A stretch of DNA of 64,000 nucleotides, taken from the NCBI GenBank assembly GCA_050733215.1, contig JBOHSN010000006.1, positions 4,708 to 68,707 on the forward strand, in the 5' to 3' direction. The notes beneath the pieces were generated by a model that searched no databases, was not told the DNA's origin, and was given only the letters and a program-made list of their open reading frames with translations. Shown one piece after another: positions 6,445 through 62,033 of this stretch. The DNA is from Gemmatimonadales bacterium (lineage in GTDB: Bacteria; Gemmatimonadota; Gemmatimonadetes; Gemmatimonadales; GWC2-71-9). The position numbers were made by a program, and so were the translations under genes. Positions within the stretch are counted from its first letter, which is position 1. Every line of letters begins with the position of its first letter.

Positions 6445-6604
6445 GCTATCCGCTATCCGCTAACCGCTATCCGCTAACCGCTAACCGCTATCCGCTATCC
6501 GCTATCCGCTAACCGCTATCCGCTGTACCTTCCAACGAGTTACTGCGCGCGATGCCATCAACGCCCTGCGGATAGCGGATAGCCGATAGCGGATAGCGGA
6601 TAGC
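6445..6604. repeat. Inverted heptamer arrays: GCTAWCC x11 (6445-6521) and GGATAGC x5 (6570-6604), 43-48 nt spacer
   Basis: Direct reading. The arrays start 1 nt after the TAG stop at 6442-6444 and end 6 nt before the ATG at 6611. Confidence 0.95.
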
Positions 6605-8487: not shown

Positions 8488-8503
8488 CAACTGCAGCCGC
8501 GAA

Positions 8504-8570
8504 GGAACGCCAATGCACGCGAATGAGAGTCCATTCGCGCTCATTCGCGCAAATTCGCGGCTTCGGTTCC
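8504..8570. repeat. Hairpin of decamer repeats (CGCGAATGAG-type left arm; NNCATTCGCG x3 right arm)
   Basis: ggaacgccaatgcacgcgaatgagag / tccattcgcg ctcattcgcg caaattcgcg gcttcggttcc. The outer GGAAC...GTTCC ends also pair. Confidence 0.75.
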
Positions 8571-11098: not shown

Positions 11099-12559
11099 AT
11101 GAGCCGAATCCGCCAGGCCGTCGGGCTCACCTTCGACGACGTACTCCTCGTGCCGCGGCATTCGACCGTGCATCCGCGCGAGGTTTCCACCCTGAGCCGG
11201 CTCACCCGCTCCATCCCGCTCAACATCCCGCTCATCTCCGCCGCCATGGACACCGTCACCGAAGCCGAAATGGCCATCGCCATGGCGCGCGCCGGAGGCA
11301 TCGGGGTGATCCACAAGAACATGACGATCGACCGCCAGGCGGCCGAAGTCGATCGGGTGAAGCGCAGCGAGAGCGGGATGATCCTCAACCCGATCACGCT
11401 GGGGCCCGAGCGTCCGGTGCGCGAGGCCTACGCGCTGATGCGGCGGTTCAAGATCTCGGGTGTCCCCATCGTGGACGGCGAGGGCCGCCTCATCGGGATC
11501 ATCACCAACCGCGATCTCCAGTTCGAGCGGAATCTCGACCAGCCGATTCGCGACGCGATGACGAAGGAAAAGCTCGTGACCGCGCCGGTCGGCACCGATC
11601 TCGACGAGGCCGAGCGGATCCTCGCGCGCCACCGTATCGAGAAGCTGCCGGTGGTGGACGCCAGGGGCGTGCTCAAGGGCCTGATCACGGTCAAGGACAT
11701 CTTCAAGCGCCGCGAGCATCCTGACGCCAACAAGGACCAGCACGGCCGTCTCCGGGTCGCTGCCGCCGTGGGTGGCGCGCCCGATGCCGTCACCCGCGCG
11801 CGCGCCCTGGTCGGCGCCGGCGTGGATGTGCTCTGCGTGGACTCGGCACACGGGCACAGCGAAGCCGTGCTCCAGGCGCTCGACGCCATCAAGGAGAGCT
11901 TCCCCGACGTCGAAGTCATCGCGGGCAACGTCGCCACCGAGGCGGGAGCGCGCGAGCTGGTCCGGCGCGGGGCCGACGCCGTCAAGGTGGGCATCGGTCC
12001 GGGCAGCATCTGCACCACCCGCGTGGTCACCGGCGTGGGTGTTCCGCAGGTCACCGCCATCCAGGACGCCGGGCGCGGCGCGGGCGACGTGCCGATCATC
12101 GCCGACGGCGGCATCAAGTACTCCGGCGACGTCGTCAAGGCGATCGCCGCCGGGGCGTCCGCCGCGATGATGGGATCGATGCTCGCTGGCACCGAGGAGA
12201 GCCCCGGCGAGGCGGTGCTGGCCGAGGGCCGGCGCTTCAAGATGATCCGCGGCATGGGCAGCCTGTCGGCCATGCAGGACGGCAGCGCCGACCGGTACTT
12301 CCAGGAAGGCGAGATGACGCCCACCAAGATGGTGCCCGAGGGCATCGAGGGCCGCGTCCCCTACAAGGGCCCGGTGGCCGACGTGCTCTTCCAGATGGTG
12401 GGCGGGCTCCGGAGCGGGATGGGGTACTGCGGCGTCGCCAACCTCGCGGCGCTCCAGTGCGACGTCGAGATGATCCGCGTAACCGCGGCGGGCCTGCGCG
12501 AGTCACACCCGCACGACGTCACGATTACGCGCGAAGCACCGAACTACAGTAAGCAGTGA
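11099..12559 (+). CDS. guaB: IMP dehydrogenase
   Basis: [22 protein letters not shown]..., a CBS pair, the catalytic [11 protein letters not shown] loop and GGIKYSGD. The ATG at 11099 lies inside ORF 10985..12559. Confidence 0.95.
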
Positions 12560-12683
12560 GCAGTAAGCAGTAAGCTGGGGATTCCGGTGCCCGGGCAGAT
12601 CCCGTACGCCCCCGCTCACCGCTTACCGCTCACCGTTTACTGCTCACCGTTTACTGCTCACTGCTCACTGCTCACTGCTCACC
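12548..12683. repeat. Inverted heptamer arrays: AGTRAGC x4 (12548-12575) and GCTYACY/GTTTACT x10 (12614-12683), 38-nt spacer
   Basis: Direct reading. The left arm contains the guaB stop codon (TGA 12557-12559). The right arm ends 17 nt before the permease ATG. Confidence 0.95.
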
Positions 12684-22280: not shown

Positions 22281-22406
22281 AACCACAGAGGACACAGAAA
22301 ACACCGAGAACCGGATTATCCGGCGGTCTCGGGCCGAGATACACGACCCTGAACGCGAGACCACAAACAAGATCGGTTCTCTGTGTTCTCTGTGTCCTCT
22401 GTGGTT
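22281..22406. repeat. 126-nt hairpin element: 33-nt arms (31/33 complementary) built from CACAGAGG-type octamers, with an inner inverted repeat GGTCTCG...CGAGACC
   Basis: Left arm aaccacagaggacacagaaaacaccgagaaccg (22281-22313). Right arm cggttctctgtgttctctgtgtcctctgtggtt (22374-22406). Confidence 0.9.
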
Positions 22407-22438: not shown

Positions 22439-23935
22439 ATGGCGATTGACAGCCTGAGCGAGTTCATCCGCGAGATCGAGAAGATCGGCGAGCTGGTACG
22501 GGTGACGCACCCGGCGAAGGCTCGCCTGGAGATTGCGGAGATTGCCGACCGGTGCATGAAGAGCGCCGGCGGCGGGCCGGCGCTCTTCTTCGAGCACGTG
22601 CTCCTCGACGATGGGCGGCGGAGCGCGTACCCTGTCGCCATCAACCTCTACGGCTCGATGCGGCGCATGTGTCTGGCGCTGGGGGTGAACGCGCTGGATG
22701 AGATCGGCGGGCGCATCAGCGAGCTGCTCGAGCTCAAGGTGCCGGAAGGACTCTTCGGCAAGCTCTCGATGCTCCCGCGTCTGGCCGAAGTCGCCAGGTT
22801 TCCGCCGCGGACCCGGAGCGGCAAGCCGCCGTGCCAGCACACGGTCACGCGGGGGGACAACGTGGATCTCTCCGTTATTCCGTTTCTCACGACCTGGCCC
22901 AAGGACGGCGGACCCTATATCACGCTGCCGATGGTGATCACAACCGATCCTGTGCGCGGCATCCGGAACGTCGGGATGTACCGCGTCCAGGTGCTCGGCC
23001 GGAATACGCTCGCGATGCACTGGCAACGCCACAAGGTGGGCGCGGCGCACTGGCGCGAGATGGCGGCGCGCGGCGAGAAGATGCCGGTGCTCATCGCGCT
23101 CGGCGGTGACCCCGCGAGCATCTACTCCGCCTCGGCGCCGCTCCCACCGACCATCGACGAGTTCATCTTCGCGGGCTTTCTCCGGCGCTCGCCGGTGGAG
23201 CTGGCGAAGGCGGTCACCTGCGACCTGGACGTGCCGGCCGAGGCGGACATCGTCCTCGAGGGATACATCGAGCCGGCCGAGCCGCTCGCGCTCGAGGGGC
23301 CGTTCGGCGACCACACGGGGTTCTACTCGCTCGCGGACTACTACCCCACGGTGCACGTCACGGCCGTCACGATGCGGCGGGATCCGGTGTACCCGGCCAC
23401 GCTGGTGGGCCGCCCGCCGATGGAGGACTACTACCTCGGTCACGCCACCGAGCGGATCTTTCTGCCGCTGCTCCGGCTCACCCTGCCCGAGATCGTTGAT
23501 TACCATATGCCCGCGCCCGGCATCTTCCACAATCTGGTGTTCGTCAGCATCGACAAGCAGTATCCCGGGCAGGCGTGGAAGGTGATGAACGCGCTGTGGG
23601 GCCAGGGGCTGATGTCGCTGGCCAAGGTGATCGTCGTCGTGGACAAGCAGGTGAACGTGCGCGATGCCGACGAGGCGTGGTGGGTGGCGCTCAACAACAT
23701 CGACCCCGAGCGCGATGTCCGCTTTACCATGGGCCCGATGGACGTGCTCGACCACTCGAGCCGGGCCTTCACCTATGGCAGCAAGATGGGGATCGACGCG
23801 ACGCGAAAGTGGAAGGAGGAGGGGTTCGACCGGGAGTGGCCGGAGGTGATCGCGATGGACGAGGCGACCAAGCGGCGCGTAGACGAGATCTGGCCACAGC
23901 TTGGGATCCGGTTGGAGGTGAGAGGTGAGAGGTGA
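22439..23935 (+). CDS. ubiD: UbiD-family (prenyl-FMN-dependent) decarboxylase
   Basis: 498 aa, colinear with UbiD/MqnL-type decarboxylases (...GGPYITLPMVITTDP..., ...FGDHTGFYS...). A ubiX gene is nearby. Confidence 0.9.
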   Translation: MAIDSLSEFIREIEKIGELVRVTHPAKARLEIAEIADRCMKSAGGGPALFFEHVLLDDGRRSAYPVAINLYGSMRRMCLALGVNALDEIGGRISELLELKVPEGLFGKLSMLPRLAEVARFPPRTRSGKPPCQHTVTRGDNVDLSVIPFLTTWPKDGGPYITLPMVITTDPVRGIRNVGMYRVQVLGRNTLAMHWQRHKVGAAHWREMAARGEKMPVLIALGGDPASIYSASAPLPPTIDEFIFAGFLRRSPVELAKAVTCDLDVPAEADIVLEGYIEPAEPLALEGPFGDHTGFYSLADYYPTVHVTAVTMRRDPVYPATLVGRPPMEDYYLGHATERIFLPLLRLTLPEIVDYHMPAPGIFHNLVFVSIDKQYPGQAWKVMNALWGQGLMSLAKVIVVVDKQVNVRDADEAWWVALNNIDPERDVRFTMGPMDVLDHSSRAFTYGSKMGIDATRKWKEEGFDREWPEVIAMDEATKRRVDEIWPQLGIRLEVRGER

Positions 23936-24014
23936 GAGGGAGTACCGAGGCGAGCTCACGAGCCCGACGCCTGCGCCGGAGCCCCCGCTCACGTCTCACC
24001 GCTCACGTCTCACC
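23917..24014. repeat. Inverted heptamer arrays: GGTGAGA x3 (23917-23937) and GCTCACG/TCTCACC x4 (23987-24014)
   Basis: Direct reading. The ubiD stop (TGA 23933) and the only in-frame start of ubiA (GTG 23925) both lie in the left arm. Confidence 0.95.
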
Positions 24015-24902
24015 GCCCGCGAAGGCCAGACGTTTGCCGGCGAGTCCCTCCTCGTCCGCTACGCCAACTTCGTCAAGCTGCCCCATACCCTCTTCGCCCT
24101 GCCGTTCGCGCTGCTCGGCCTGGTGGCGGCCTCGATGGAGGTGCCCGTAACGTGGCGCACCGTGCTCCTGGTGGTTCTCGCGTTCTCGGCGGCGCGCTGG
24201 GTGGCCATGGGCTTCAACCGGATCGCCGACCGGGAGTACGACGCGCGGAACCCGCGCACCCGGAATCGCGAGCTCCCGCGCGGCGCGCTCTCCCTGCCGC
24301 AGGCGTGGGCATCGATCATCCTGGCGGCGGCGCTGTTCGTGCTCGCGGCCGCGCTGCTCAACCGGCTCTGTCTGGCGCTGAGCCCGCTGGCGCTCGCCTG
24401 GGTGATGACCTACAGCTTCGCGAAGCGATTCACCTGGTGGCCGCATCTCTGGTTGGGCCTGAGCCTGGCCATCGCGCCGGTGGGCGGGTGGCTGGCCGTG
24501 ACCGGCGCCTGGAGCGAGCCGTGGTGGCTGCTGGCACCGATCACGGTGGCGGTGGCCACGTGGGTGGCCGGCTTCGACATCTTCTACGCCCTGCCCGACG
24601 AGGCGTTCGACCGGAGCGAGGGACTCCGGAGCGCCGTGGTGCGGCTCGGCGAGAGGCGCGGCATCCTCCTGGCGAAGGTGCTGCACGGGATCACGATCCC
24701 GGCTCTGGGGCTGTTCGGCTGGGCCGCCGGGTTCGGCCGGCTGTACTTCGCCGGCCTCCTCGTCGCGGCGGGCATTCTGATCTACGAGCACCGCCTGGTC
24801 CGGCCTGGTAACCTGACGCGCCTCGATGCGGCGTTCTTCACCATGAACGGTGTGATGAGCGTGACGGTCTTTCTGTTCGCGCTGGGGGATCGGCTGCTGT
24901 GA
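23925..24902 (+). CDS. ubiA: UbiA-family aromatic prenyltransferase (4-hydroxybenzoate polyprenyltransferase-like)
   Basis: Multi-TM protein with NRIADREYDARNPRTRNR (the NxxxDxxxD region). The first about 33 codons are repeat-derived. There is no other ATG/GTG/TTG before the conserved N-terminus (VRYANFVKLPHT). Confidence 0.8.
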   Translation: MRGEREYRGELTSPTPAPEPPLTSHRSRLTAREGQTFAGESLLVRYANFVKLPHTLFALPFALLGLVAASMEVPVTWRTVLLVVLAFSAARWVAMGFNRIADREYDARNPRTRNRELPRGALSLPQAWASIILAAALFVLAAALLNRLCLALSPLALAWVMTYSFAKRFTWWPHLWLGLSLAIAPVGGWLAVTGAWSEPWWLLAPITVAVATWVAGFDIFYALPDEAFDRSEGLRSAVVRLGERRGILLAKVLHGITIPALGLFGWAAGFGRLYFAGLLVAAGILIYEHRLVRPGNLTRLDAAFFTMNGVMSVTVFLFALGDRLL

Positions 24903-50961: not shown

Positions 50962-51056
50962 AACCACAAAGGCAGGAAGGACACAAAGGCCTCATATTCA
51001 TCCCCGCGACGCCGAGGTCTCCGGGCAGCCTTCGGGCCCTTCGTGCCTTTGTGGTT
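50962..51056. repeat. 95-nt hairpin element with perfect 13-bp outer arms AACCACAAAGGCA / TGCCTTTGTGGTT (same family as 22281)
   Basis: Direct reading. It lies in the divergent promoter region between the MBL hydrolase and dtd. Internal GGACACAAAGG resembles the octamers of 22281. Confidence 0.8.
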
Positions 51057-53654: not shown

Positions 53655-53667
53655 AGGGGAAAAGTAG

Positions 53668-53792
53668 GCGGGAGAGGGCGGGAGGGGGCGGGAGGGGGAG
53701 GGAGAGGGAGCCGGATCGGGCGGCTCCGCTGTTCACGCCGGGGGCGTTCCTGCCTCTCCCGCCCTCTCCCGCCCTCTTTCGCCCTCTCCCGC
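53668..53792. repeat. Inverted decamer arrays GCGGGAGRGG x4 (53668-53707) and CCTCTYYCGC x4 (53753-53792), 42-45 nt spacer
   Basis: Direct reading. The right arm encodes the last about 19 codons of trpE. The left arm ends 14 nt upstream of the cyclase start codon. Confidence 0.95.
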
Positions 53793-55268
53793 CGCAAGCG
53801 CCAGTGCAAGCAACACCGCCCGCGCCTTCGCCTCGGTCTCGCGGAGCTCGGCCGCCGGGTCGGAGTCGGCCACGATGCCGGCGCCGGCCTGCACCCAGGC
53901 CCGTCCGTTCCGCATGACGCAGGTGCGCAGCGCGATCGCGGTATCGAGTACCTGCGCCCCCCAGCCGACGTATCCCACGGCGCCCGCGTACGGTCCACGG
54001 CGCACCGGCTCGAGCTCGTCGATGATCTCCATCGCGCGGACCTTGGGCGCGCCGCTCACCGTGCCGGCGGGGAAGCAGGCCGCGAGCGCGGCCACGGCGT
54101 CGAGCTCCGGCCGCAGCCGGCCGCGCACCTCGCTGACGAGGTGCATGACGTGCGAGTACCGTTCGATCGTCATGAACTCCGTGAGGTGCACCGAGCCGAA
54201 CTCGGCGACCCGGCCCACGTCGTTCCGCCCCAGGTCCACCAGCATCAGATGCTCGGCCCGCTCCTTCGGGTCGGCTTCCAGCTCCGCGGCGAGCGCAGCG
54301 TCGCGCTCGGGCGTGTCGCCCCGCAGCCGGGTGCCGGCGATCGGCCGGAGCGTGACCTCCCGGTCCTCCACCCGCACGAGAATCTCGGGCGAGCTGCCGA
54401 CGATATGGACGTCGTCGAAGTGCAGGCAGTAGAGATACGGCGCCGGGTTGAGCGCGCGGAGGTAACGGTATGTCAGAAACGGATCGGGGGCGGGGAGATC
54501 CAGCCGGCGGGAGAGCACCGTCTGAAAGGTGTCGCCCGCGGCAATGTACTCCTTGATCCGGCGTACGTCGCGCTCGAAACGGGTGTCGGTGTAGGGCGAC
54601 GTTACGGACGGGACAGCGGCCGGCTCCATCGGCAGCGGCCGCAGTATGGCGGGACCGGCGAGACGCGCCAGCCAATCGTCGATGCGGGCTTCGGCAGTTT
54701 CGTGCAGCCGGGCCAGCGTCGCCTCGTCCGCGCCGTCCGGCACATCGACGTTCGCGATCACGGTCGCGCGATTGTACAGATTGTCGAGCACGAGGAGCGT
54801 GTCGGCCACCATGAGGAGCGCGTCCGGCAGATCGCGGTCGTCCGGCGGGGGTGACGGCAACGACTCGAGGGTGCGCACGATGTCGTACCCGAGGTAGCCC
54901 ACGGCGCCGCCGGTGAAGCGCGGCAGCCCGGGCACCTCCACCGGGGCGTAGCGCCGCATCGCGCGGCCGAGGTGCTCGAGCGGGGCGATGTCCTCGGCCT
55001 CGAGCTGCCAGCCCGCCGCCGCGGTCCACCGCTCGCAGCGTCGCCCGCGGTAGCGGAACACCTCGCGCGGATCGGTGGCCAGAAACGTGTAGCGGGCCCA
55101 TCGCTCGCCCCCCTCGAGCGACTCGAGCAGGAAGCCGAAGGGGCCCCGGTGCAGTTTCGCGAATGCCGCGACCGGCGTATCACCGTCGAGCAGCACCTGA
55201 CGGGTGACCGGCACGATGGCGCCGCCCGCCCGGGCGCCGGCCCTGATCGCCTCCAGGCCGACGCTCAC
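53733..55268 (-). CDS. trpE: Anthranilate synthase component I
   Basis: 511 aa and colinear with TrpE (...LESLEGGERWARY..., ...GAPKVRAMEII..., GAGIVADS). The C-terminal tail AAGEGERGRERAGEAGTPPA is repeat-derived. Confidence 0.9.
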   Translation of the reverse strand: MSVGLEAIRAGARAGGAIVPVTRQVLLDGDTPVAAFAKLHRGPFGFLLESLEGGERWARYTFLATDPREVFRYRGRRCERWTAAAGWQLEAEDIAPLEHLGRAMRRYAPVEVPGLPRFTGGAVGYLGYDIVRTLESLPSPPPDDRDLPDALLMVADTLLVLDNLYNRATVIANVDVPDGADEATLARLHETAEARIDDWLARLAGPAILRPLPMEPAAVPSVTSPYTDTRFERDVRRIKEYIAAGDTFQTVLSRRLDLPAPDPFLTYRYLRALNPAPYLYCLHFDDVHIVGSSPEILVRVEDREVTLRPIAGTRLRGDTPERDAALAAELEADPKERAEHLMLVDLGRNDVGRVAEFGSVHLTEFMTIERYSHVMHLVSEVRGRLRPELDAVAALAACFPAGTVSGAPKVRAMEIIDELEPVRRGPYAGAVGYVGWGAQVLDTAIALRTCVMRNGRAWVQAGAGIVADSDPAAELRETEAKARAVLLALALAAGEGERGRERAGEAGTPPA

Positions 55269-55846
55269 CGCGGCGCCCCGACCACGAAACTGCCGGGCCC
55301 GGGCAGCGCCGCGCGAAGGTTGTCCGACGCCGGCCGGGTGGAGACGAGAAACCGGATGCCGCCGTCGGGCAGCAGCTGCCCGACGGCCAACACCGCCTCG
55401 AACGCGGCATCGCTGCCGTACTTCCGCGTGGCCTCGATGGGAGCCGAGAAGTGGACCGGGTACTTGAAGGTCACGGTGGCGCCCGCGATGGGCGTGGCGC
55501 TGCTCTCCACATCCACGCCGTAGACGCCGGGCCGGGGGCGGATGGCCAGGCGCACCGAGTCGGATGTGGGCGCCGCGCTGTCGAACGCTTCCGCCGGCAG
55601 CGTCACTTCGGCAAAGATGAGGTTGTCGGGCGGACCATGGCGGAGCACAACGACCCGCCGGGCGCCCCGCGACACGCGCAGCGTGGTATCGTCCGGGGGC
55701 ACGCCAGCGACCTCGAGCAGGTAGACCTGGTCGAGGGTGTACCTGAGCGCCGGGTTGCCGGTGGTGTTGGAGGGCCTCGGGCCCGGCGCGGCGGGGTTGG
55801 GGGAAGCGCAGGCGGCGATTGCGAGCAGGGCGAGGACCGGGGACAT
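55265..55846 (-). CDS. Hypothetical lipoprotein
   Basis: MSPVLALLAIAACAS lipobox. The 21 upstream codons of the ORF (..SPLTAHHLPLTAH..) are a repeat translation. Its stop overlaps the trpE GTG (GTGA). Confidence 0.5.
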   Translation of the reverse strand: MSPVLALLAIAACASPNPAAPGPRPSNTTGNPALRYTLDQVYLLEVAGVPPDDTTLRVSRGARRVVVLRHGPPDNLIFAEVTLPAEAFDSAAPTSDSVRLAIRPRPGVYGVDVESSATPIAGATVTFKYPVHFSAPIEATRKYGSDAAFEAVLAVGQLLPDGGIRFLVSTRPASDNLRAALPGPGSFVVGAPR

Positions 55847-55861
55847 TCCAAACCAGTGCGC

Positions 55862-56008
55862 GGTGAGAGGCAAATGGTGAGCGGTGAGCGGTGAGCGGAT
55901 CGGAGGCATGATGACTCAGTGCGTTGTCCGGGGGTTGGCAGTCTGGACCGTCCCGCTTCTCGTGTACTGCTTACCGCTCACCGCTCACCGCTCACCGCTT
56001 ACCGCCCA
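55862..56008. repeat. Inverted heptamer arrays: GGTGAGM x4 (55862-55868, 55876-55896) and CCGCTYA-type x5-6 (55967-56008), flanking the start codon of the plus-strand gene
   Basis: Direct reading. The SD (GGAGG 55902) and ATGATG (55908-55913) lie in the loop. The right arm is translated as LPLTAHRSPLTAQ. Confidence 0.95.
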
Positions 56009-57983
56009 GTCCTGGAGCTCCCCGCCGGCTCTGGCCCTTGCCGGACGGGCGGTCGAGCGGCGGCAGGAGGCCCAAGCCGATTCCGCGCTCCGGAGCTGGC
56101 GGACGCGCGCGCACGGCTTCGTCTTCTTCCTGGCGCAGATCGGGGAGGGGCTCACCGGACCGCCGCGCCTCGTGAAGGCGGACGAACTGGACGTGGAAGT
56201 GTATTGGCAGGTGCCGGGGCGGAGCAAGCAAATCATCCTCGGCTGGCGCGACGGCCGCTTCCTTCCCACCGACATCGACTACCACCGGGACCATCTCGGC
56301 ATCGTCACCAACGACTTCGGTGACGTGATCCGCATCGGTGAGGGCGACGAGGTGCGCGACGTGCCGCACCCGCTTTCGCCCGCCGGCCTCGAGGCCTACC
56401 AGTTCGCGCTGGGTGACTCGCTCTCGATCCGGAGCGCCACCGGCGAGATCCGCGTGCGCGAGCTCCGGGTGCGCCCGCGGGACTTCGGCGCTCCGCTGGT
56501 GGTCGGCTCGCTGTATCTGGATGCCGCCTCCGCTCGGGTGGTGCGGTTCCGGTTCAGCTTCACGCCGGCTGCGTACCTCGATCGCCAGCTCGAGGACATC
56601 AGCGTCGTGCTGGAGAATTCACTGGTCGAAGGCCGCTTCTGGCTCCCGTACCGCCAGGAGATCGAGATCCGGCGCCGGACCAGCTGGCTCGACTTTCCGG
56701 CCCGCGGCATCATCCGTGGGCGCTGGGAGATCGGTGACTACGACCTCGGGCTTGCGATCCCGCCGGCGGTGTTCGCGGGCGGCGACATCGGCGGGCTCGT
56801 CAGGCCGGACCCGAACGACCCACGCTGGACCGTTCCACTCCGCGAGGCCATCGCCGGCGCCGCTCCCCCGCTCGACCGGCGCGACATCCAGGCTCTCCGC
56901 GTCCAGGCGGAGCGCATTGCCGGTAGGCGCGCGCTGAGCGGACTCCCCGGCAGCCGGCTCGCCATCGGCTCCATCAGCGACCTGGTCCGGGTGAATCGGG
57001 TGCAGGGACTCACGTTGGGGCTCGGGAGCTCGTTGCGCCTCGGCGAGAGCCGGCTGCGGCTCCGACCGAGGCTCGGTTTCGGCACGGCGGACGAGCGGCT
57101 GACCGGCGGGCTCGCGGTGGACGTCGGCATCGGGGCGGCGGAGCTCACCGGCTATGTTGGGCGGCGGGTGACCGACGTCAGCGACCAGCGCGTGATCTCC
57201 GGCCTGCTCAACTCGTTTCTCGCGCAGGAGAGCGGGGACGACTACGGTGATTACGTATCGCTCGACGCCGTCGGCGCAGGCCTCCGGCAGCCGCTCGGCG
57301 GCCTGACCGCGCTCACGCTCGAGCTCGCGTTGGAGCGAAGCCGCTCGCTCGAGGTGCGCGCCACACCGGCTCACGGGAGCTATCGTCCCAACCCGGCGCT
57401 GGGCGCCGGGACGTACCGGCATGCGCGTCTCCGGCTGGAGCGGGCCGGCGCCGCCCCGCCGAGCAGCGGACTCGCGGGCCACCTCGCGGTGGAGGTGGGC
57501 GAAGGCCCGACCGACTACCTGCGGGTGGCAGGCGGGGGCGCGTGGCTACTGCCGGTCGGCGGCAGCCAGCTCCTGCTCAAGGCCGATGCAGGAACGGGGA
57601 CCGTGGGTCTTCCGGCATATCGGAGCTTCGTGCTCGGCGGGCGGGGCACGCTGGTCGGCGAGCCGTTCCGCGCCTGGGGCGGACGCGATTTCGTGCTCGC
57701 ACGGGTCGAGTGGCGGCTCGATGCGCCGGTCCCGGCGATTTCGCTTGGGTCGTTTGCCTCCACCGGCCGCACGATGATCGTGGCCCCGTTCGCGGCGGCC
57801 GGCTGGACCGGCCGGCCGATCGCCGGGCTGCCGTGGGCCGGCACCGACGGGGTCCGGCCGGTGGCCGGTATCGCCGTCGAGTGGCTGATGCGGCTGATCC
57901 GGGTGGAGGCTGGGGTGGGACTCCGGGACGGCGACTTCGGGGTCACGGTGGACATTCACCCGGAATGGTGGGGGATTCTGTAG
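55908..57983 (+). CDS. Large hypothetical outer-membrane protein (Omp85/surface-antigen-like C-terminal barrel suspected)
   Basis: 692-aa reading from ATG 55908 with a GGAGG SD. Signal-like N-terminus and a Gly/aromatic beta-strand-rich C-terminal half. No firm family call. Confidence 0.5.
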   Translation: MMTQCVVRGLAVWTVPLLVYCLPLTAHRSPLTAQSWSSPPALALAGRAVERRQEAQADSALRSWRTRAHGFVFFLAQIGEGLTGPPRLVKADELDVEVYWQVPGRSKQIILGWRDGRFLPTDIDYHRDHLGIVTNDFGDVIRIGEGDEVRDVPHPLSPAGLEAYQFALGDSLSIRSATGEIRVRELRVRPRDFGAPLVVGSLYLDAASARVVRFRFSFTPAAYLDRQLEDISVVLENSLVEGRFWLPYRQEIEIRRRTSWLDFPARGIIRGRWEIGDYDLGLAIPPAVFAGGDIGGLVRPDPNDPRWTVPLREAIAGAAPPLDRRDIQALRVQAERIAGRRALSGLPGSRLAIGSISDLVRVNRVQGLTLGLGSSLRLGESRLRLRPRLGFGTADERLTGGLAVDVGIGAAELTGYVGRRVTDVSDQRVISGLLNSFLAQESGDDYGDYVSLDAVGAGLRQPLGGLTALTLELALERSRSLEVRATPAHGSYRPNPALGAGTYRHARLRLERAGAAPPSSGLAGHLAVEVGEGPTDYLRVAGGGAWLLPVGGSQLLLKADAGTGTVGLPAYRSFVLGGRGTLVGEPFRAWGGRDFVLARVEWRLDAPVPAISLGSFASTGRTMIVAPFAAAGWTGRPIAGLPWAGTDGVRPVAGIAVEWLMRLIRVEAGVGLRDGDFGVTVDIHPEWWGIL

Positions 57984-58064: not shown

Positions 58065-60323
58065 ATGCAGTTCACCGATGAATGGCTCGTGCCCACCGTT
58101 GAGACGCTCGTTCCCGGCGACGTGCTCGCGGGCCTCCGTCTCGCCGACGGGCCACCCTCCTCGCTCTGGGAAACGCTGGTTCAGCGCAAGCTCGCCACGG
58201 ATGCGCAGATCCTGAATGCGGTGGCGACGCGCTTCCGCTTCGGGGTGGCGGAGCTGGCCGGGGTCGATCCCGACGTGAAGGATGCGGTGCCCGAGCAGCT
58301 GGTCCGCAAGTACAACGTCGTGCCTATCCGGGTGACCGAGTCGCTGCTGGAGATCGGAACCGCCAATCCGTTCGATCTTGACGCCGAGAAGGCGCTCGCG
58401 TTCGCGACCGGCCGCGAGGTCCGCCTGCTGCTCGCCGCGCCCGCGCGAATCCGCGAGAAGCTGGACGAGCTCTACCGCGGCGAGGATGCGATCAACCGCT
58501 TCCTCGACAGCATGGGCGGCGACTTCGAGGTCAAGGAGGTCAAGGAGGAGGACGACGCGGCCGTCACCGCGGAGGAGGCGAGCCAGCGGCCCATCATCCG
58601 CCTCGTCGACACGATGCTCGCCGACGGGGTGACGAGCCGGGCGAGCGACATCCACGTGGAGCCGGCCGAGGGCGCCGTGGTGGTGCGCTACCGTATCGAC
58701 GGCGTGCTCCGCCAGGTCATGAAGATCCCGCGCTCCGCGGGACTGCCGCTCATCTCGCGCATCAAGATCATGTCCGGCCTCGACATCGCCGATCGCCTGC
58801 GCCCGCAGGATGGCCGCGCCCGCGTGTCGGTGAACGGCGATCCGATCGACCTGCGCATCTCCACGCTCCCGGCCTCGCTGGGCGAGAAGGTCGTCATCCG
58901 GATCCTGAGCCAGAAAGCGACGGTGCTGTCGCTGGACGGTCTGGGGCTCAATCCGCAGGAGGCCGAGTCCATCGCGCGCCTGCTGCGGCACAAGGAGGGC
59001 ATCATCCTGGTGACGGGCCCCACCGGCTCGGGCAAGACGACGACGCTCTACTCCGCGCTCCGGCTGATTCAGAGCGAGGGCGTCAACATCGTCACGGTCG
59101 AAGACCCCGTCGAGTACCGGCTGGGCCAGAACATCGTGCAGGTGCAGGTGCACGAGAAGGCCGGCCTCACCTTCGCGTCCGCGCTCCGCTCGATCCTCCG
59201 GCAGGATCCCGACGTGGTGCTCATCGGCGAGGTGCGCGACCAGGAGACCGCGCAGATCGCGCTGCAGGCCTCGCTCACCGGCCACCTGGTCCTGTCCACG
59301 CTGCACACCAACGACGCACCGAACTCGGTCACCCGTCTGCTCGACATGGGCATGGAGGCGTACAAGATCGCCTCGGCGCTGCGCGGCATCGTGGCACAGC
59401 GGCTGATGCGGCGGCTCTGCGTCCATTGCAAGGAGCCCGGCGGCGACGGGACGCCGGAGCGTGTCGCCCGCCTGCTGCCCGCGGGGACCAAGCTCTTCCG
59501 GGCGGTCGGCTGTCCGGAATGCGCGCAGACCGGCTATCGCGGCCGTTTCAGCATCGTGGAGGTGCTCACGATGACGCCCGCGATCGAGCGGGCGATCGGG
59601 GCCGGTGCCACGGCCGACGTGCTCGCCGAGATGGCCCGGGACCAGGGCATGCGCTCGCTCTGGGAGAGCGGCCTCCAGCACCTGGTGGCCGGCGACACGA
59701 CCGTGGAAGAATTGCTCCGCGTCACCGACGTTCCCGCCGAGGTCGTGCCGGAGCGGGCGAGCGCGCCACGGCGTCCGGCGCCGGAGCCGAAGCGCGGTGG
59801 GAGGGCCGCCGCCGCGCCGCCTGCGACCCCGGCTCCGGCCAGCACACCGCCTCAGCCCGCGTCGGCGCCGTCGGTCGATTTCTCCATGGAGATGGACCTG
59901 CTCGACGACGCGCCGCCCGGCTCGGCCGCCGGCGCTGAGCGGAGGCGCGGCATCGTCGTGTTGCTGGTGGACGACGAGGACGATCTCCGGCGGGTCATGC
60001 GCGACCTGCTGGAGCGCGAAGGCTACTCGGTCCAGGAGGCGCGCGACGGCGTGCAGGCGCTCGACCAGGTGGACCGGCACGCGCCGGACGTCATTGTGCT
60101 CGACCTCAACCTGCCGGGGCTCGACGGCTACGGCGTCCTGTCCCAGCTCCGCTCCCGGAATGCCACCCGCAACATTCCGGTCATCGTACTCACCGCGAAG
60201 GGCGACGAGGAAAACGAGGTGCGTGTCTTCGAGCTGGGCGCGGACGACTTCCTGAGCAAGCCGTTCCGCGCCCGCGCGCTGCCCGCGCGCCTCGAAGCGG
60301 TGCTCGGCCGCCGCGCCCGATGA
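58065..60323 (+). CDS. GspE/PilB-family secretion ATPase with an N-terminal T2SSE_N domain and a C-terminal CheY-like receiver domain
   Basis: T2SSE_N-like aa 1-150. Walker A GPTGSGKTTT, Asp/His boxes, and the tetracysteine motif CVHC...CPEC. REC aa 629-752 (59949-60320): LLVDDEDD, VIVLDLNLPGLDG, VLTAKG, SKPF. Confidence 0.85.
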   Translation: MQFTDEWLVPTVETLVPGDVLAGLRLADGPPSSLWETLVQRKLATDAQILNAVATRFRFGVAELAGVDPDVKDAVPEQLVRKYNVVPIRVTESLLEIGTANPFDLDAEKALAFATGREVRLLLAAPARIREKLDELYRGEDAINRFLDSMGGDFEVKEVKEEDDAAVTAEEASQRPIIRLVDTMLADGVTSRASDIHVEPAEGAVVVRYRIDGVLRQVMKIPRSAGLPLISRIKIMSGLDIADRLRPQDGRARVSVNGDPIDLRISTLPASLGEKVVIRILSQKATVLSLDGLGLNPQEAESIARLLRHKEGIILVTGPTGSGKTTTLYSALRLIQSEGVNIVTVEDPVEYRLGQNIVQVQVHEKAGLTFASALRSILRQDPDVVLIGEVRDQETAQIALQASLTGHLVLSTLHTNDAPNSVTRLLDMGMEAYKIASALRGIVAQRLMRRLCVHCKEPGGDGTPERVARLLPAGTKLFRAVGCPECAQTGYRGRFSIVEVLTMTPAIERAIGAGATADVLAEMARDQGMRSLWESGLQHLVAGDTTVEELLRVTDVPAEVVPERASAPRRPAPEPKRGGRAAAAPPATPAPASTPPQPASAPSVDFSMEMDLLDDAPPGSAAGAERRRGIVVLLVDDEDDLRRVMRDLLEREGYSVQEARDGVQALDQVDRHAPDVIVLDLNLPGLDGYGVLSQLRSRNATRNIPVIVLTAKGDEENEVRVFELGADDFLSKPFRARALPARLEAVLGRRAR

Positions 60324-61423
60324 CCGAATCGCTCGCGGACGCGAGCCCGGCCATCGAGCTGGTGAAGCCCGCGGTCCGGGGACAGCCGGCGTACACGCTC
60401 GTTCCGCGCCCGTCCCGCCGCAAACTGAATCAGAACGAGAGTCCGTGGGACGTGCCGGAGGCGCTCAAGCGCGAGATCATCGAGCGCGCGATGGCGCTGC
60501 CGTGGAACCGCTACCCGGAGTTCGTTCCGTCCGAGCTGCTCCAGCGGCTCGCGGCGGCGCACGCGTGGCACCCCGACGGGATCCTGGTCGGCAACGGCTC
60601 CAACGAGCTGATCCAGGCGGTGCTCGCCACCACGCTCTCGCCCGGCGAAGCCGTCGTGGCGCCGTCGCCGACGTTCTCGCTCTACCGCCTGCTGACCAAC
60701 GTGTTCGACGGCCGCTACGTGCCGGTGGCGCTGGGCGGGGATTTCCGGTACGACGTTGATTCGCTGATCAAGGCGGCCGTGCGGGAGCGCGCCCGGGTCG
60801 TGGTGCTCAACTCGCCGAACAACCCCACCGGTAGCACGCTGCCGCCCGACGGCGTGGAGCGTGTGCTCGAGGCGACCGACGCGCTGGTGCTGTGCGACGA
60901 GGCGTATCAGGACTTCGGTGGCCCCACCGCCGTGCCGCTGCTGCCGTCGTCCCCGCGAGTCGTGGTCCTCCGCACGTTCTCCAAGGCGTTCGGTCTCGCG
61001 GGGCTCCGCTTCGGCTACGCGCTGGCGCATCCTTCGCTGGCGCGGGAGATCGCCAAGGGCAAGCTGCCGTACAACGTGAACGCCATCACGCTCGCGGCCG
61101 CGGCGATGCTGATGGAGCACGCGGAGCTCCGCACCGAACGGATCCGCTCCCTCGTCGCGACGCGGGATCGCACGGTGGATCGCCTCCGCGCGCTCCGGGG
61201 CATCAGGGTGTACCCGACCGCCGCCAACTTTGTGCTCCTCCGCTGCCAGGGCGTGCCGGCGCGCGATGTCTTCCGGCGGCTGCTGGACGAGCACGGCATT
61301 CTCGTGCGCGATGTGTCCAGCGGGAGCGAGCTCCAGGAGTGCCTGCGGATCTCCATCGGCACGGAGGAGGACATGGACGCGGTCGCCGCGGCGCTGGAGC
61401 AGATCGTCGGCGGTGAGCGGTGA
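60320..61423 (+). CDS. hisC: Histidinol-phosphate aminotransferase
   Basis: LNQNESP, NPNNPTG and the PLP lysine region FSKAFGLAGLRFGY. The ATG overlaps the upstream stop (ATGA). The stop lies inside a heptamer array. Confidence 0.9.
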   Translation: MTESLADASPAIELVKPAVRGQPAYTLVPRPSRRKLNQNESPWDVPEALKREIIERAMALPWNRYPEFVPSELLQRLAAAHAWHPDGILVGNGSNELIQAVLATTLSPGEAVVAPSPTFSLYRLLTNVFDGRYVPVALGGDFRYDVDSLIKAAVRERARVVVLNSPNNPTGSTLPPDGVERVLEATDALVLCDEAYQDFGGPTAVPLLPSSPRVVVLRTFSKAFGLAGLRFGYALAHPSLAREIAKGKLPYNVNAITLAAAAMLMEHAELRTERIRSLVATRDRTVDRLRALRGIRVYPTAANFVLLRCQGVPARDVFRRLLDEHGILVRDVSSGSELQECLRISIGTEEDMDAVAAALEQIVGGER

Positions 61424-61434
61424 GCGGTGAGCGG
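61412..61434. repeat. Heptamer tandem repeat GGTGAGC x3 (single arm) containing the hisC stop
   Basis: ggtgagc ggtgagc ggtgagc gg. TGA occurs at 61414, 61421 and 61428, so in all three frames. Confidence 0.95.
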
Positions 61435-61442
61435 GAGGTCCC

Positions 61443-62033
61443 GTGGCAAGGGTAGGCGACGTCACCCGTACCACCAAGGAAACCGAGCTGCGCGTCCGGG
61501 TCGATTTGGACGGCCGGGGCGAGGCGAGCATCCGCACCGGCATCGGCTTCTTCGACCACATGCTCGAGGCGCTGGCGCGCCACGCGCTACTCGATCTCGA
61601 GATCCAGGCGGCAGGCGACCTCCACGTGGACGGCCATCACACGGTCGAGGACACCGGAATCGCGCTCGGCCAGGCCATCGCGGAGGCGCTGGGCGACCGC
61701 GCGGGCATCCGCCGCTACGCCGATGCGGCGGTGCCGCTCGACGAAGCGCTGGTGCGCGTCGTACTCGATGTGTCCGGCCGCCCGTTCCTGGCGTACCAGG
61801 TGGACATCCCGAAGTGGCAGATGCTCGGCGACTACGACGTGTTCCTCACGCCGGAGTTCTTTCGCGCGCTGGTGACTCACGCGGGCGTCACCGCCCACAT
61901 CGACCTGATGCGGGGCGATAACCCGCACCACATCGTCGAGGCGGCGTTCAAGGCGTTCGCCAAGGCACTCGACGCCGCGACCGCGCTCGACCCCCGGGTG
62001 CACGGCGTGCCCTCGACCAAGGGCGTGCTGTGA
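61443..62033 (+). CDS. hisB: Imidazoleglycerol-phosphate dehydratase
   Basis: RTTKETELRV...GIGFFDHML...DGHHTVED motifs. GTG start preceded by GGGAGG. Confidence 0.95.
   Translation: MARVGDVTRTTKETELRVRVDLDGRGEASIRTGIGFFDHMLEALARHALLDLEIQAAGDLHVDGHHTVEDTGIALGQAIAEALGDRAGIRRYADAAVPLDEALVRVVLDVSGRPFLAYQVDIPKWQMLGDYDVFLTPEFFRALVTHAGVTAHIDLMRGDNPHHIVEAAFKAFAKALDAATALDPRVHGVPSTKGVL

What the first reader, a model, noticed from the sequence alone, without database searches (positions are those of the whole stretch)
55862..56008. Heptamer hairpin whose loop contains the SD and start codon of a large outer-membrane protein gene and whose right arm is translated
The left arm GGTGAGC x3 (55876-55896), plus GGTGAGA at 55862, lies in a 61-nt divergent intergenic region. 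The right arm, CCGCTCA x3 followed by CCGCTTA and CCGCCCA (55974-56008), lies inside the plus-strand CDS and encodes LPLTAHRSPLTAQ of the presumed signal peptide. GGAGG (55902) and ATGATG (55908-55913) sit between the arms. About 21 nt of perfect complementarity could sequester or present the initiation region. On the DNA, plus-strand stops precede the plus gene and minus-strand stops precede the minus gene (start 55846).
Basis: partly seen in the sequence, partly recalled or inferred. Interest (0 to 1): 0.6.

Follow-up and report, generated by a model that had tools for sequence, protein, structure and literature searches.

The report
Mirror-repeat hairpin coding two signal peptides
The hairpin is real, but it is not intergenic: it spans the shared start (CATG) of two back-to-back genes of a soil Gemmatimonadales bacterium, each arm is read on its own strand as part of that gene's export signal, and its 7-base unit follows whichever unit is commonest in each genome.

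Summary
Observation confirmed: GGTGAGC x3 (55876-55896) faces GCTCACC x3 (55976-55996). The RNA folds at -87 kcal/mol, z -5.5.

- **Right arm.** It is translated as the end of a cleavable signal peptide of a conserved Omp85-like barrel protein. The peptide ends at a conserved A-Q|x-W-N junction.
- **Left arm.** It is probably not intergenic. In 20 hairpin-type orthologues with an in-frame start, the divergent lipoprotein ORF starts at the minus ATG of the same CATG. It then reads the left arm's complement in frame.
- **Promoters.** Conserved promoter-like motifs, kept by rare codons inside each other's coding sequence, put both arms in both mRNAs.
- **Family.** This is one of about 279 repeat-armed hairpins in the genome.
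- **Unit type.** Across 18 congeneric genomes the unit at this locus matches the genome's dominant unit.
- **Decay.** The locus hairpin has decayed in at least four lineages that lost GTGAG arrays.

I conclude that a genome-wide repeat process maintains it, and that it survives here because the stop-free strand faces outward into both genes. Damping of translation is predicted but untested. Phase variation rests on one relative whose right arm is one unit short.

The parts
55857..56008 (.). Whole repeat-armed palindrome: two arms plus a roughly 72-nt loop
   Evidence: 40-nt arms, 80% complementary; 23-nt core 96%. The + RNA folds at -87.2 kcal/mol and the - RNA at -81.7 kcal/mol, both z about -5.5.
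55876..55898 (+). Left arm, GGTGAGC x3, with an outer GGTGAGA unit at 55862-55868. It forms the 5' leader of the + mRNA. On the - strand it is read as codons 5-16 of the lipoprotein precursor (RSPLTAHHLPLT).
   Evidence: frame conservation.
55969..56008 (+). Right arm, GCTTACC GCTCACC x3 GCTTACC GCCCAG. It covers + codons 21-34 (CLPLTAHRSPLTAQ) of the Omp85-like protein's signal peptide.
55907..55910 (.). CATG palindrome that supplies both start codons: + ATG 55908-55910 and - ATG 55909-55907
   Evidence: CATG is present in all 14 same-genus orthologues aligned. The minus ATG opens a 202-215 aa lipoprotein ORF in 19 of the 20 hairpin-type loci with an in-frame + ATG; the twentieth is 163 aa.
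55902..55906 (+). SD-like GGAGG, 1 nt before ATG1 and 4 nt before ATG2 (55911). It is also codons Pro2-Pro3 of the minus gene.
   Evidence: P(unpaired) is about 0.2 in the full-length leader.
55908..57983 (+). Gene for a 691-aa exported protein. The C-terminal half is an Omp85 (TamA/BamA-like) 16-strand barrel. There is a weak DUF5686 match.
   Evidence: AlphaFold2 pLDDT 74.6; Foldseek TamA/BamA E 7.5e-11; orthologue found in 61 of 61 Gemmatimonadales genomes.
55908..56006 (+). Predicted Sec signal peptide (33 aa). Cleavage is inferred at LTA|Q.
   Evidence: Conserved AQ-x-WN junction; pLDDT below 50 for residues 1-33.
55265..55909 (-). Divergent lipoprotein gene (214 aa, no family match). Its stop overlaps the start of trpE by 4 nt.
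55808..55909 (-). Lipoprotein signal peptide, MPPIRSPLTAHHLPLTAHWFGMSPVLALLAIAA|C, with the lipobox Cys at residue 34
55819..55847 (+). Promoter-like TTGCGA-N17-GACATT for the + gene, lying inside the lipoprotein's signal-peptide codons. The predicted TSS is about 55854.
   Evidence: In relatives the box is kept as the rare codons CGA ATA; ATA is 1.4% of Ile codons.
56198..56227 (-). Promoter-like TTGCTC-N18-TACACT for the - gene, lying inside the + gene's codons DVEVYW..SKQ. The predicted TSS is about 56191, giving a leader of about 280 nt that contains the right arm's complement.
   Evidence: Found at the same position in 30 of 31 orthologues. The Glu codon that supplies the -10 T is GAA in 53 of 53 loci although GAA is 16% of Glu codons.

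Best explanation
This is one copy of a genome-wide class of 'mirror-repeat' hairpins: two inverted arrays of a short tandem repeat around a locus-specific loop. This copy has become fixed across the head-to-head junction of a conserved gene pair, a lipoprotein on the minus strand and an Omp85-like barrel protein on the plus strand. The two start codons share one CATG. The array is stop-free in all three frames only as (GCTCACC)n, and an inverted pair between divergent genes shows that strand to both genes. Each arm is therefore read as sense and became part of a cleavable signal peptide. The right arm forms the h/c region of the barrel protein's signal peptide. The left arm forms an N-terminal extension of the lipoprotein's signal peptide. 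The ancestral layout was arm-free. The plus gene was leaderless, with its ATG 7-9 nt after the -10 box. The lipoprotein started 2-3 codons before the 'ISR' codons that are that -10 box read on the other strand. Each gene's promoter lies inside the other gene, so both mRNAs should carry both arms and can fold into a stem of about -65 kcal/mol that encloses the start codon. The sequence of the arms is set mainly by a genome-wide, DNA-level homogenising or copying process for the repeat family, not by selection at this locus. Selection at the locus only filters orientation and reading frame. The expected side effect is a strongly structured 5' end on both mRNAs. That would favour co-transcriptional initiation, dampen re-initiation and protect the 5' end. 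Shown: the anatomy, the conservation, the frame maintenance and the unit concordance. Inferred: the transcription starts, the signal-peptide cleavage, the effect on expression and the nature of the homogenising process.
For: The hairpin is real. The same-genus orthologues L002, L003, L005, L007, L008, L011 and L012 carry a GTGAG-type hairpin at the same place. Arm complementarity has p<=0.003 in seven orthologues including the window's own copy (L002 0.04, L006 0.16) and p 0.27-0.97 in L015, L016 and other genera. The right arm ends at the conserved AQ|xWN junction. The minus ORF starting at the CATG is intact in all 20 hairpin-type loci with an in-frame + ATG, with eight different distances to the lipobox Cys across the genus, all in frame. 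L004 has no other start codon and L002 and L003 only ones that leave 10-12-aa uncharged signal peptides. Embedded promoters: TTGnnn-N17-GATATT in 47 of 71 orthologues, with the ATG at +7 to +9 in repeat-free genera and at +45 to +63 with the array in between. The minus-strand TTGCTC-N18-TACACT occurs in 30 of 31 orthologues, with GAA in 53 of 53 loci against 16% genomic usage. Family membership: 279 hairpin loci against 5 and 56 in controls, depleted in divergent gaps. Counts of GGTGAGC / GGTGAGA / AGTGAGC / AGTGAGA triplets per genome are G000 119/38/33/2, G005 13/205/32/19, G012 9/0/137/32 and G015 0/10/0/53. In each of these genomes the locus carries the dominant unit in both arms. Genomes with 0-2 such arrays (G010, G013, G016, G004, G017) are nested among hairpin-bearing genomes in the gene tree and keep only decayed arms at this locus.
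Against: The consensus sigma-70 scan did not flag the plus promoter. The minus-strand motif lies in an invariant protein motif, so only one synonymous site argues for DNA-level selection. Decayed arms in GTGAG-free genomes still show weak complementarity (p 0.01-0.03). That could mean selection for pairing rather than slow decay. Genomes without GTGAG arrays still hold other unit families such as GTGAAC, so 'loss of the process' is too strong a phrase. The gene tree is a single-gene proxy for the species tree. The homogenising mechanism itself was not identified, and a Y1 transposase gene does not correlate with the family.
Confidence: 0.6

Rival explanations
1. This is a dedicated, selected cis-regulatory RNA hairpin. 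The stem is kept because it gates translation initiation or stabilises the mRNA of the Omp85-like gene, and by symmetry of the lipoprotein gene, so that the pair is expressed together.
For: The hairpin is retained across many species-level lineages, with unit changes matched in both arms. Weak complementarity persists after the repeats have decayed. Opening the TIR costs 15-28 kcal/mol against 7 without the left arm. The predicted TSS lies at the foot of the stem. The same stem can form on both mRNAs.
Against: The unit type equals each genome's dominant unit, and the hairpin decays in at least four lineages that lost the family. L015, L016 and all other genera manage without it. About 279 copies sit in unrelated contexts, mostly at 3' ends. 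No ligand- or protein-binding feature and no known RNA family were found.
Confidence: 0.2
2. This is a phase-variation switch. Gain or loss of one 7-nt unit in the right arm shifts the frame of the barrel gene, and in the left arm that of the lipoprotein gene. The surface or envelope protein would be switched on and off, as with the opa genes of Neisseria.
For: The unit length is not a multiple of 3 and lies between the ATG and the mature protein, so a change of one unit breaks the window's ORF. In the closest relative (G005, L002) the only signal-peptide-like ATG frame is out of frame with the mature protein. Adding exactly one unit (3 to 4, matching the 4 left units) restores MAWRRSVAGMGFVLFPLTSHLSPLTAQ|WESP.
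Against: There are only 3-5 units. Every other orthologue with a readable start, and all lipoprotein ORFs, are in frame, and the lipoprotein's distance to its lipobox Cys is exactly 34 residues in 12 of the 20 loci. The gene is present in 61 of 61 genomes, which is unlike a contingency locus. G005 is a fragmented MAG with 8% contamination, so an assembly error is possible. A second suspected case (C11:53921-55774) turned out to use a conserved GTG start.
Confidence: 0.08
3. The lipoprotein starts at ATG 55846, and the left arm is untranslated intergenic or leader DNA.
For: An ATG exists at 55846-55844 and is followed by a hydrophobic stretch and a lipobox (MSPVLALLAIAAC). A 34-aa lipoprotein signal peptide is unusually long.
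Against: That ATG is specific to the GACATT variant of the -10 box. L004 has no start at that position, and L002 and L003 have only starts that give 10-12-aa uncharged signal peptides. The CATG ATG is in frame in all 20 loci, with eight different lengths across the genus. The positive charges (RISR, ARRR) lie upstream of the short start.
Confidence: 0.12

Closest known systems
Convergent (inverted) pairs of heptamer tandem repeats, (GGGAATC)n, in Xanthomonas campestris and X. axonopodis (Rehm et al. 2015, PMC4692102)
   Same: Both have heptamer arrays on opposite strands close together that can form stem-loops. There are tens of pairs per genome, they lie mostly between co-oriented or convergent genes, and they are rare between divergent genes and inside genes.
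   Different: The Xanthomonas units are G-tract, quadruplex-forming sequences. No copy there is reported to straddle a start codon or to be translated. Here the unit lacks a GGG tract, both arms are coding, and the unit variant differs between congeneric genomes.
Rickettsia palindromic elements (RPE) and other intragenic palindromic repeats (my own knowledge; Ogata et al. 2000)
   Same: Both are dispersed hairpin-forming repeats that survive inside ORFs because they are read in frame in tolerant parts of proteins.
   Different: An RPE is a fixed element of about 100-150 bp inserted whole into one gene. Here only the arms are repeated and the loop is locus-specific. The two arms are read by two different genes on opposite strands.
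REP/REPIN elements with RAYT transposases (Bertels & Rainey 2011, my own knowledge; PMC3733652 surfaced, title and abstract only)
   Same: Both are genome-specific palindromic repeat populations. Their sequence differs between related genomes and they decay when maintenance stops.
   Different: The arms here are tandem microsatellites, not a fixed palindrome with a GTAG or CGTC tag, and the loop is not part of the repeat. A single-copy Y1_Tnp gene is present in 17 of 18 genomes whether or not GTGAG arrays are present.
Neisseria opa genes: CTCTT repeats in the signal-peptide coding region (my own knowledge; Stern et al. 1986)
   Same: Both have a tandem repeat, not a multiple of 3, inside the leader-peptide codons of an outer-membrane protein gene, so copy number sets the frame.
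   Different: The opa genes carry many units and show documented high-frequency switching, with no inverted partner. Here there are 3-5 units and copy number is stable in nearly all relatives.
5'-terminal stem-loops that stabilise mRNA, such as the ompA 5' UTR (my own knowledge; Emory, Bouvet & Belasco 1992)
   Same: A stable stem is predicted to begin within a few nt of the inferred 5' end of an outer-membrane protein mRNA.
   Different: The ompA stem is short and lies wholly in the UTR. Here the 3' strand of the stem is coding sequence, so each translating ribosome must open it.

Membership tests
Convergent heptamer SSR pairs (Rehm et al. 2015) | Two tandem heptamer arrays on opposite strands within about 100 nt | tested here: met
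   3.3 copies at 55876-55898 and 5.3 copies at 55969-56005, 72 nt apart.
Convergent heptamer SSR pairs (Rehm et al. 2015) | G-tract unit able to form a G-quadruplex (GGG per unit, at least 4 units) | tested here: not met
   The unit GGTGAGC has no GGG run.
Convergent heptamer SSR pairs (Rehm et al. 2015) | Dispersed family, mainly intergenic, rare between divergent genes | tested here: met
   There are 279 loci: 164 in tandem gaps, 56 in convergent gaps and 17 in divergent gaps. Density is 0.65, 1.0 and 0.16 per kb of gap respectively. This copy is an exception to that pattern.
REP/REPIN-RAYT | The whole element, arms and loop, is the repeated unit | tested here: not met
   The loops hold locus-specific start codons and N-terminal codons that are homologous to those of hairpin-free relatives.
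REP/REPIN-RAYT | Presence of a cognate RAYT (Y1 transposase) correlates with the repeat family | tested here: not met
   PF01797 is single-copy in 17 of 18 genomes, including those with no GTGAG arrays. It is absent from G012, which has 137 arrays.
Phase-variable coding SSR (opa type) | The repeat unit is not a multiple of 3 and lies between the start codon and the mature protein | tested here: met
   a change of one unit shifts the frame.
Phase-variable coding SSR (opa type) | Copy-number polymorphism within populations or between strains that toggles the frame | tested here: inconclusive
   One relative (L002) is one unit short and all others are in frame. No read data were available.
Phase-variable coding SSR (opa type) | A long array that gives high slippage rates | tested here: not met
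   There are 3 perfect units and 5 in all.
Translational operator hairpin (RBS sequestration) | The SD and/or AUG are base-paired in the stable structure | tested here: inconclusive
   They lie in the loop but within a predicted inner helix. P(unpaired) is about 0.2 and the opening cost is 15 kcal/mol against 7. This is prediction only.
5'-terminal stabiliser stem-loop (ompA type) | The stem starts within about 0-4 nt of the mRNA 5' end | not testable with these tools
   The TSS is inferred only from a conserved -35/-10 motif, and the array starts 1-9 nt after the -10 box in relatives.
Omp85 superfamily (for the + gene product) | C-terminal 16-strand barrel of the BamA/TamA type | tested here: met
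   AlphaFold2 model. Foldseek best hits are TamA and BamA, E 7.5e-11, target TM 0.73 for the barrel alone.
Omp85 superfamily (for the + gene product) | N-terminal POTRA domains and a sequence-family match | tested here: not met
   There is no Omp85 or POTRA Pfam or NCBIfam hit, only DUF5686 just under its cut-off. The N-terminal half is a different beta-rich domain.

The most novel reading that the evidence does not exclude
The heptamer arrays are propagated and kept uniform by an active, unit-specific process, either a self-copying microsatellite or a trans-acting factor. That process rewrites more than 100 loci per genome, including both strands of the coding junction of a conserved envelope gene pair. 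The resulting two-fold symmetric hairpin, present on two antisense mRNAs that share one CATG, couples the translation of the two proteins.
Probability: 0.22. Interest if true: 0.85.

Novelty: new variant of a known kind. Interest (0 to 1): 0.6.

Why it matters
The locus shows that a fast-turning-over repeat family can overwrite the start region of two conserved genes at once, and what rules allow this. The stop-free strand must face outward, and the copy number must keep both frames. It also records an apparent change from a leaderless to a structured, leadered start in one genus. The Omp85-like gene is kept in all 61 genomes searched. The signal-peptide sequences of both proteins are dictated by a DNA repeat unit: PLTAHRS, LLTAHCS, PLTSHLS or LLTSHFS, depending on the genome. 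The concordance between the unit at one locus and the genome-wide dominant unit, together with decay after loss of the family, turns the question of what keeps these hairpins uniform into something testable by comparative genomics. For annotation, it warns that gene callers and readers will misplace starts at such junctions.

Tried and rejected
- **Sigma-70 and terminator scan of 55600-56100.** Nothing was found. The promoter inference therefore rests on conservation only.
- **Rfam, E-value mode.** Only sub-threshold matches to miRNA-precursor hairpins appeared, 24-31 bits against gathering scores of 90-168.
- **RAYT / Y1 transposase as determinant.** There is no correlation.
- **Exact-protein look-up for other assemblies.** Nothing was on record.
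- **A second 'one unit out of frame' gene in the own genome (C11:53921-55774).** Rejected. Its orthologues start at a conserved GTG in the last left-arm unit ('AVSG...'), so it is in frame.
- **GTG 55884 as the plus start.** Judged less likely than the ATG. The CATG and a 7-8-residue n-region ending in Arg are conserved, whereas L006 has no in-frame GTG.
- **Site-specific invertible segment.** Rejected. Loop orientation is constant in all orthologues.
- **Other double-coded divergent hairpins in this genome.** Four candidates did not hold up on inspection.
- **PDB and NCBIfam sequence searches for both proteins.** These gave nothing useful.

Full report
**1. The observation**

- GGTGAGA lies at 55862-55868 and GGTGAGC x3 at 55876-55896.
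- GGAGG lies at 55902-55906 and ATGATG at 55908-55913.
- The complementary array lies at 55969-56008.

The RNA 55855-56015 folds into one long hairpin of -87.2 kcal/mol. Shuffles give -64.4 +/- 4.2, so z is -5.5 and 0 of 200 shuffles fold as well. The two arms alone form a duplex of -67 kcal/mol. The 14-mer GGTGAGCGGTGAGC occurs 23 times in the window against 1.8 expected. The feature is real and is not chance.

**2. It belongs to a large family**

Tandem-repeat and inverted-repeat scans of the window show about ten hairpins of the same build with different 7- to 10-base units.

In the whole assembly (3.97 Mb) I found 279 loci where a tandem array (period 5-12) has an inverted partner within 200 nt. 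Reversed and complemented control patterns gave 5 and 56 loci. Of the 279 loci, 130 have heptamer units.

A home-made gene caller (3557 genes) gave these placements:
- 152 are intergenic, 72 overlap a stop codon, 31 lie inside genes and 23 touch a 5' end.
- By gap type, 164 lie in tandem gaps, 56 in convergent gaps and 17 in divergent gaps. That is 0.65, 1.0 and 0.16 per kb of gap.

The copy under study therefore sits in the rarest context. Sixty-five loci have a GTGAG/CTCAC core. Earlier notes of this scan describe the same class in this genome. I treated those notes as leads and redid the census.

**3. The plus gene and its start**

The ORF 55908-57983 has an orthologue in 61 of 61 Gemmatimonadales genomes searched.

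An AlphaFold2 model built on 28 orthologues has mean pLDDT 74.6. It shows a beta-rich N-terminal domain and a C-terminal barrel. The best PDB matches for the barrel are TamA and BamA, with E 7.5e-11 and target-normalised TM 0.73. Pfam gives only DUF5686, just below its cut-off. 'Large outer-membrane protein' is therefore supported as an Omp85-like barrel, but not as a sequence-family member.

Alignment of the start regions shows a conserved A-Q|x-W-N junction immediately after the right arm. All N-termini have a 7-8-residue n-region ending in Arg. Residues 1-33 are disordered in the model. So the right arm is translated as the end of a cleavable signal peptide, and the PLTAH segment should not be in the mature protein. 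That last step is inferred.

**4. The minus gene: the left arm is coding too**

In the lipoprotein's frame, the minus strand is open from a stop at 55916-55918 through an ATG at 55909-55907. It reads MPPIRSPLTAHHLPLTAHWFGMSPVLALLAIAAC. That ATG is the complement of the CAT in the CATG that also holds the plus ATG.

Evidence that this upstream ATG is the real start:
- CATG is present in all 14 same-genus orthologues aligned. In the 20 hairpin-type orthologues with an in-frame plus ATG (genomes and metagenome contigs), the plus ATG is preceded by C.
- The minus ATG opens a 202-215 aa ORF in 19 of those 20 loci. The twentieth, L087, stops after 163 aa.
- Across the genus the lipobox Cys lies at residue 27, 30, 31, 32, 34, 35 or 39. 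These are different lengths, and all are in frame.
- L004 has no start codon at the 'short' position. L002 and L003 have only ones that leave 10-12-aa uncharged signal peptides.
- In most relatives the positive charges (RISR, ARRR) lie upstream of the short start.
- Incidental CATGs in hairpin-free relatives open only 12-45 codons.

So each arm is read as sense (GCTCACC)n by the gene it lies in. The plus gene reads LPLTAHRSPLTAQ and the minus gene reads RSPLTAHHLPLTAH. The reason is simple. (GGTGAGC)n hits TGA in every frame within three units, whereas (GCTCACC)n is open in all frames. An inverted pair between divergent genes shows the open strand to both genes.

The lipoprotein/Omp85-like divergent pair is conserved across the family. 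No other clear double-coded hairpin exists in this genome.

**5. Promoters and the ancestral state**

*Plus-strand motif.* TTGnnn-N17-[GA]A[TC]ATT lies upstream of the plus gene in 47 of 71 orthologues, always with a 17-nt spacer. In this window it is TTGCGA 55819-55824 and GACATT 55842-55847.
- In repeat-free genera the ATG follows the box by 7-9 nt, which is a leaderless layout.
- In most hairpin-bearing orthologues the array begins 1-9 nt after the box, and the ATG follows at +45 to +63.
- In this window GGTGAGA starts about 15 nt and the main array 29 nt after the box.
- In most same-genus relatives the box is encoded as CGA ATA (Arg-Ile) in the lipoprotein. ATA is 1.4% of Ile codons in this genome. 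That argues for a DNA-level constraint.

*Minus-strand motif.* TTGCTC-N18-TACACT sits at the same place inside the plus gene in 30 of 31 orthologues. In this window it spans 56227-56198, in the codons DVEVYW..SKQ.
- The Glu codon whose third base supplies the key T of the -10 box is GAA in 53 of 53 loci, although GAA is 16% of Glu codons.
- The neighbouring Tyr codon varies: TAT 37, TAC 16.

If these motifs are promoters, the TSSs are near 55854 (+) and 56191 (-). The two mRNAs would then overlap head to head by about 340 nt, and each would carry both arms. The minus RNA folds as well as the plus RNA, at -81.7 kcal/mol and z -5.5.

Hairpin-free relatives start the lipoprotein 2-3 codons before 'ISR' (for example MSRAISRR in L015). 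The left arm therefore looks like an insertion of about 14-17 codons into the lipoprotein's n-region. The same insertion gave the plus gene a leader of about 50 nt. All of this is inference from conservation. The consensus promoter scan found nothing.

**6. Conservation and unit turnover**

GTGAG-type hairpins occupy this site in the same-genus orthologues L002, L003, L005, L006, L007, L008, L011 and L012, and in several metagenome orthologues.

Complementarity between leader and signal peptide:
- It is significant (p<=0.003) in seven orthologues including the window's own copy (L001, L003, L005, L007, L008, L011, L012). L002 gives 0.04 and L006 0.16.
- It is weak in the five decayed copies (p 0.01-0.03).
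- It is absent in L015, L016 and other genera (p 0.27-0.97).

The unit differs between species, and the difference appears in both arms: GGTGAGC (window), GGTGAGA (L002), AGTGAGC (L005) and AGTGAGA (L006, L072).

Counting triplets of these four units in the 18 genomes of the genus gave:

| Genome | GGTGAGC | GGTGAGA | AGTGAGC | AGTGAGA |
|---|---|---|---|---|
| G000 (own) | 119 | 38 | 33 | 2 |
| G005 | 13 | 205 | 32 | 19 |
| G012 | 9 | 0 | 137 | 32 |
| G015 | 0 | 10 | 0 | 53 |
| G009 | 0 | 114 | 0 | 31 |

G001, G002, G010, G011, G013, G016, G004 and G017 have 0-2 such arrays. In every genome with a homogeneous hairpin at this locus, the unit there is the genome's dominant unit.

A maximum-likelihood tree of the protein places the GTGAG-free genomes inside clades of hairpin-bearing genomes. 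These are G010, the pair G013+G016, G004 and G017. That implies at least four losses, and each coincides with decayed arms at this locus.

Those genomes still have other unit families, such as GTGAAC at another gene's hairpin. What is lost is the family, not hairpins in general. This is why I attribute the matched arm changes mainly to a genome-wide homogenising or copying process rather than to compensatory selection on this RNA. The mechanism is unknown, and a single-copy Y1 transposase gene does not track the family.

One protein-level cost is visible. The GGTGAGC unit puts an Arg into the signal peptide (PLTAHRS). The window's gene alone has an extra 21-nt hydrophobic insertion (TVPLLVY) upstream of the arm.

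**7. Likely consequences**

In the full-length leader the arms are paired with probability about 1.
- GGAGG and AUG have P(unpaired) of about 0.2.
- Opening -12..+13 costs 15 kcal/mol, against 7 without the left arm.
- Opening a 35-nt footprint costs 28 kcal/mol.

I therefore expect initiation mainly before the right arm is transcribed, a closed state once the stem forms, and a protected 5' end. This is prediction only.

**8. Phase variation**

One unit more or less breaks the frame. In G005, the closest relative, the signal-peptide frame and the mature frame are offset. Adding exactly one unit to the three-unit right arm restores a perfect precursor; the left arm has four units. The lipoprotein there is intact.

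Against phase variation:
- Every other orthologue with a readable start is in frame.
- Arm lengths are very stable.
- The gene is universal in the order.
- G005 is a fragmented MAG with 8% contamination.
- A second suspected case dissolved on comparison with its orthologues.
- Reads could not be examined.

**9. Comparison with the literature**

Convergent heptamer pairs are reported for Xanthomonas (PMC4692102). They are intergenic and G-quadruplex-prone. Searches for Gemmatimonadetes with repeat or leaderless terms found nothing relevant. RPE, REP/REPIN, the opa repeats and the ompA 5' stem are analogies drawn from my own knowledge. The defining features that I could test are mostly not met (see the membership table).

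**Verdict**

This is a real and unusual copy of a poorly described repeat class. The new points are:
- the two-strand coding use of the arms around a shared CATG;
- the embedded promoters;
- the concordance between the locus unit and the genome-wide dominant unit.

Noticed in passing
window 5798-5923; 6445-6604; 8498-8559; 12547-12683; 22281-22406; 23915-24016; 50962-51056; 53667-53793: Eight further repeat-armed hairpins with other units: the GGCGGGAGAG decamer, GCTATCC with 11 units against 5, CAGTAAG/GCTCACT and others. The one at 53667-53793 lies across the 3' end of trpE.
   Followed up: partly
window 61410-61434: A lone GGTGAGC x3.6 array with no inverted partner. It supplies the TGA stop of the gene ending at 61423 and a GGGAGG just before the next gene's GTG at 61443.
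   Followed up: no
window 53733-55268 (-) and 55265-55909 (-): The lipoprotein gene's stop overlaps by 4 nt the start of an anthranilate synthase component I (trpE) gene (TIGR00564, 518 bits). The long leader and hairpin may therefore head a lipoprotein-trpE operon.
   Followed up: no
window 58065-60323 (+): A type II/IV secretion ATPase (T2SSE, MshEN) is fused to a C-terminal response-regulator receiver domain, directly downstream of the Omp85-like gene.
   Followed up: no
L002 (G005:C473), gene-orientation start region: The orthologue in the closest relative is exactly one CCTCTCA unit short in the right arm, so its signal-peptide frame and mature frame do not join. The divergent lipoprotein there is intact.
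   Followed up: yes
own genome C14:49801-51186 (-): A MurF-like ligase has a GCTCACC array translated as an N-terminal insertion (PPLTAHRSPLT). Its start codon lies in the hairpin loop. A cytoplasmic enzyme can therefore carry such an arm too.
   Followed up: no
own genome C8:49526-51187 (-); C74:12967-13062 (+); C37:15416-15518 (-): Three further genes have SD, start and n-region in the loop, and the downstream arm encodes the signal peptide (MRTIRGLAWGVLLPLTSHLSPLNAQ; MRFPLPAPPALSLLL...; MNCRAVTIIRSSALLLFGSSLFGC).
   Followed up: partly
loci L112-L122 (orthologues of own-genome gene C11:53921-55774): A second outer-membrane barrel gene keeps a hairpin at its start in the genus, with genome-specific units: GTGAGC, GTGAACG, GTGAACA and AAAAGTG. 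It appears to start at a GTG inside the last left-arm unit, right after the upstream gene's TGA in the same array.
   Followed up: partly
18 genomes of the genus: A single-copy Y1_Tnp (IS200/RAYT-like) gene is present in 17 of 18 genomes. That is typical of a domesticated RAYT, but it shows no correlation with the GTGAG family.
   Followed up: partly
window 55876-55896: The unit GGTGAGC differs by one base from GGTGATC, the 3' part of the extended Shine-Dalgarno sequence (AAGGAGGTGATC). The right-arm unit GCTCACC likewise resembles the GATCACC of the 16S rRNA 3' end. This may be coincidence, since other unit families show no such likeness.
   Followed up: no
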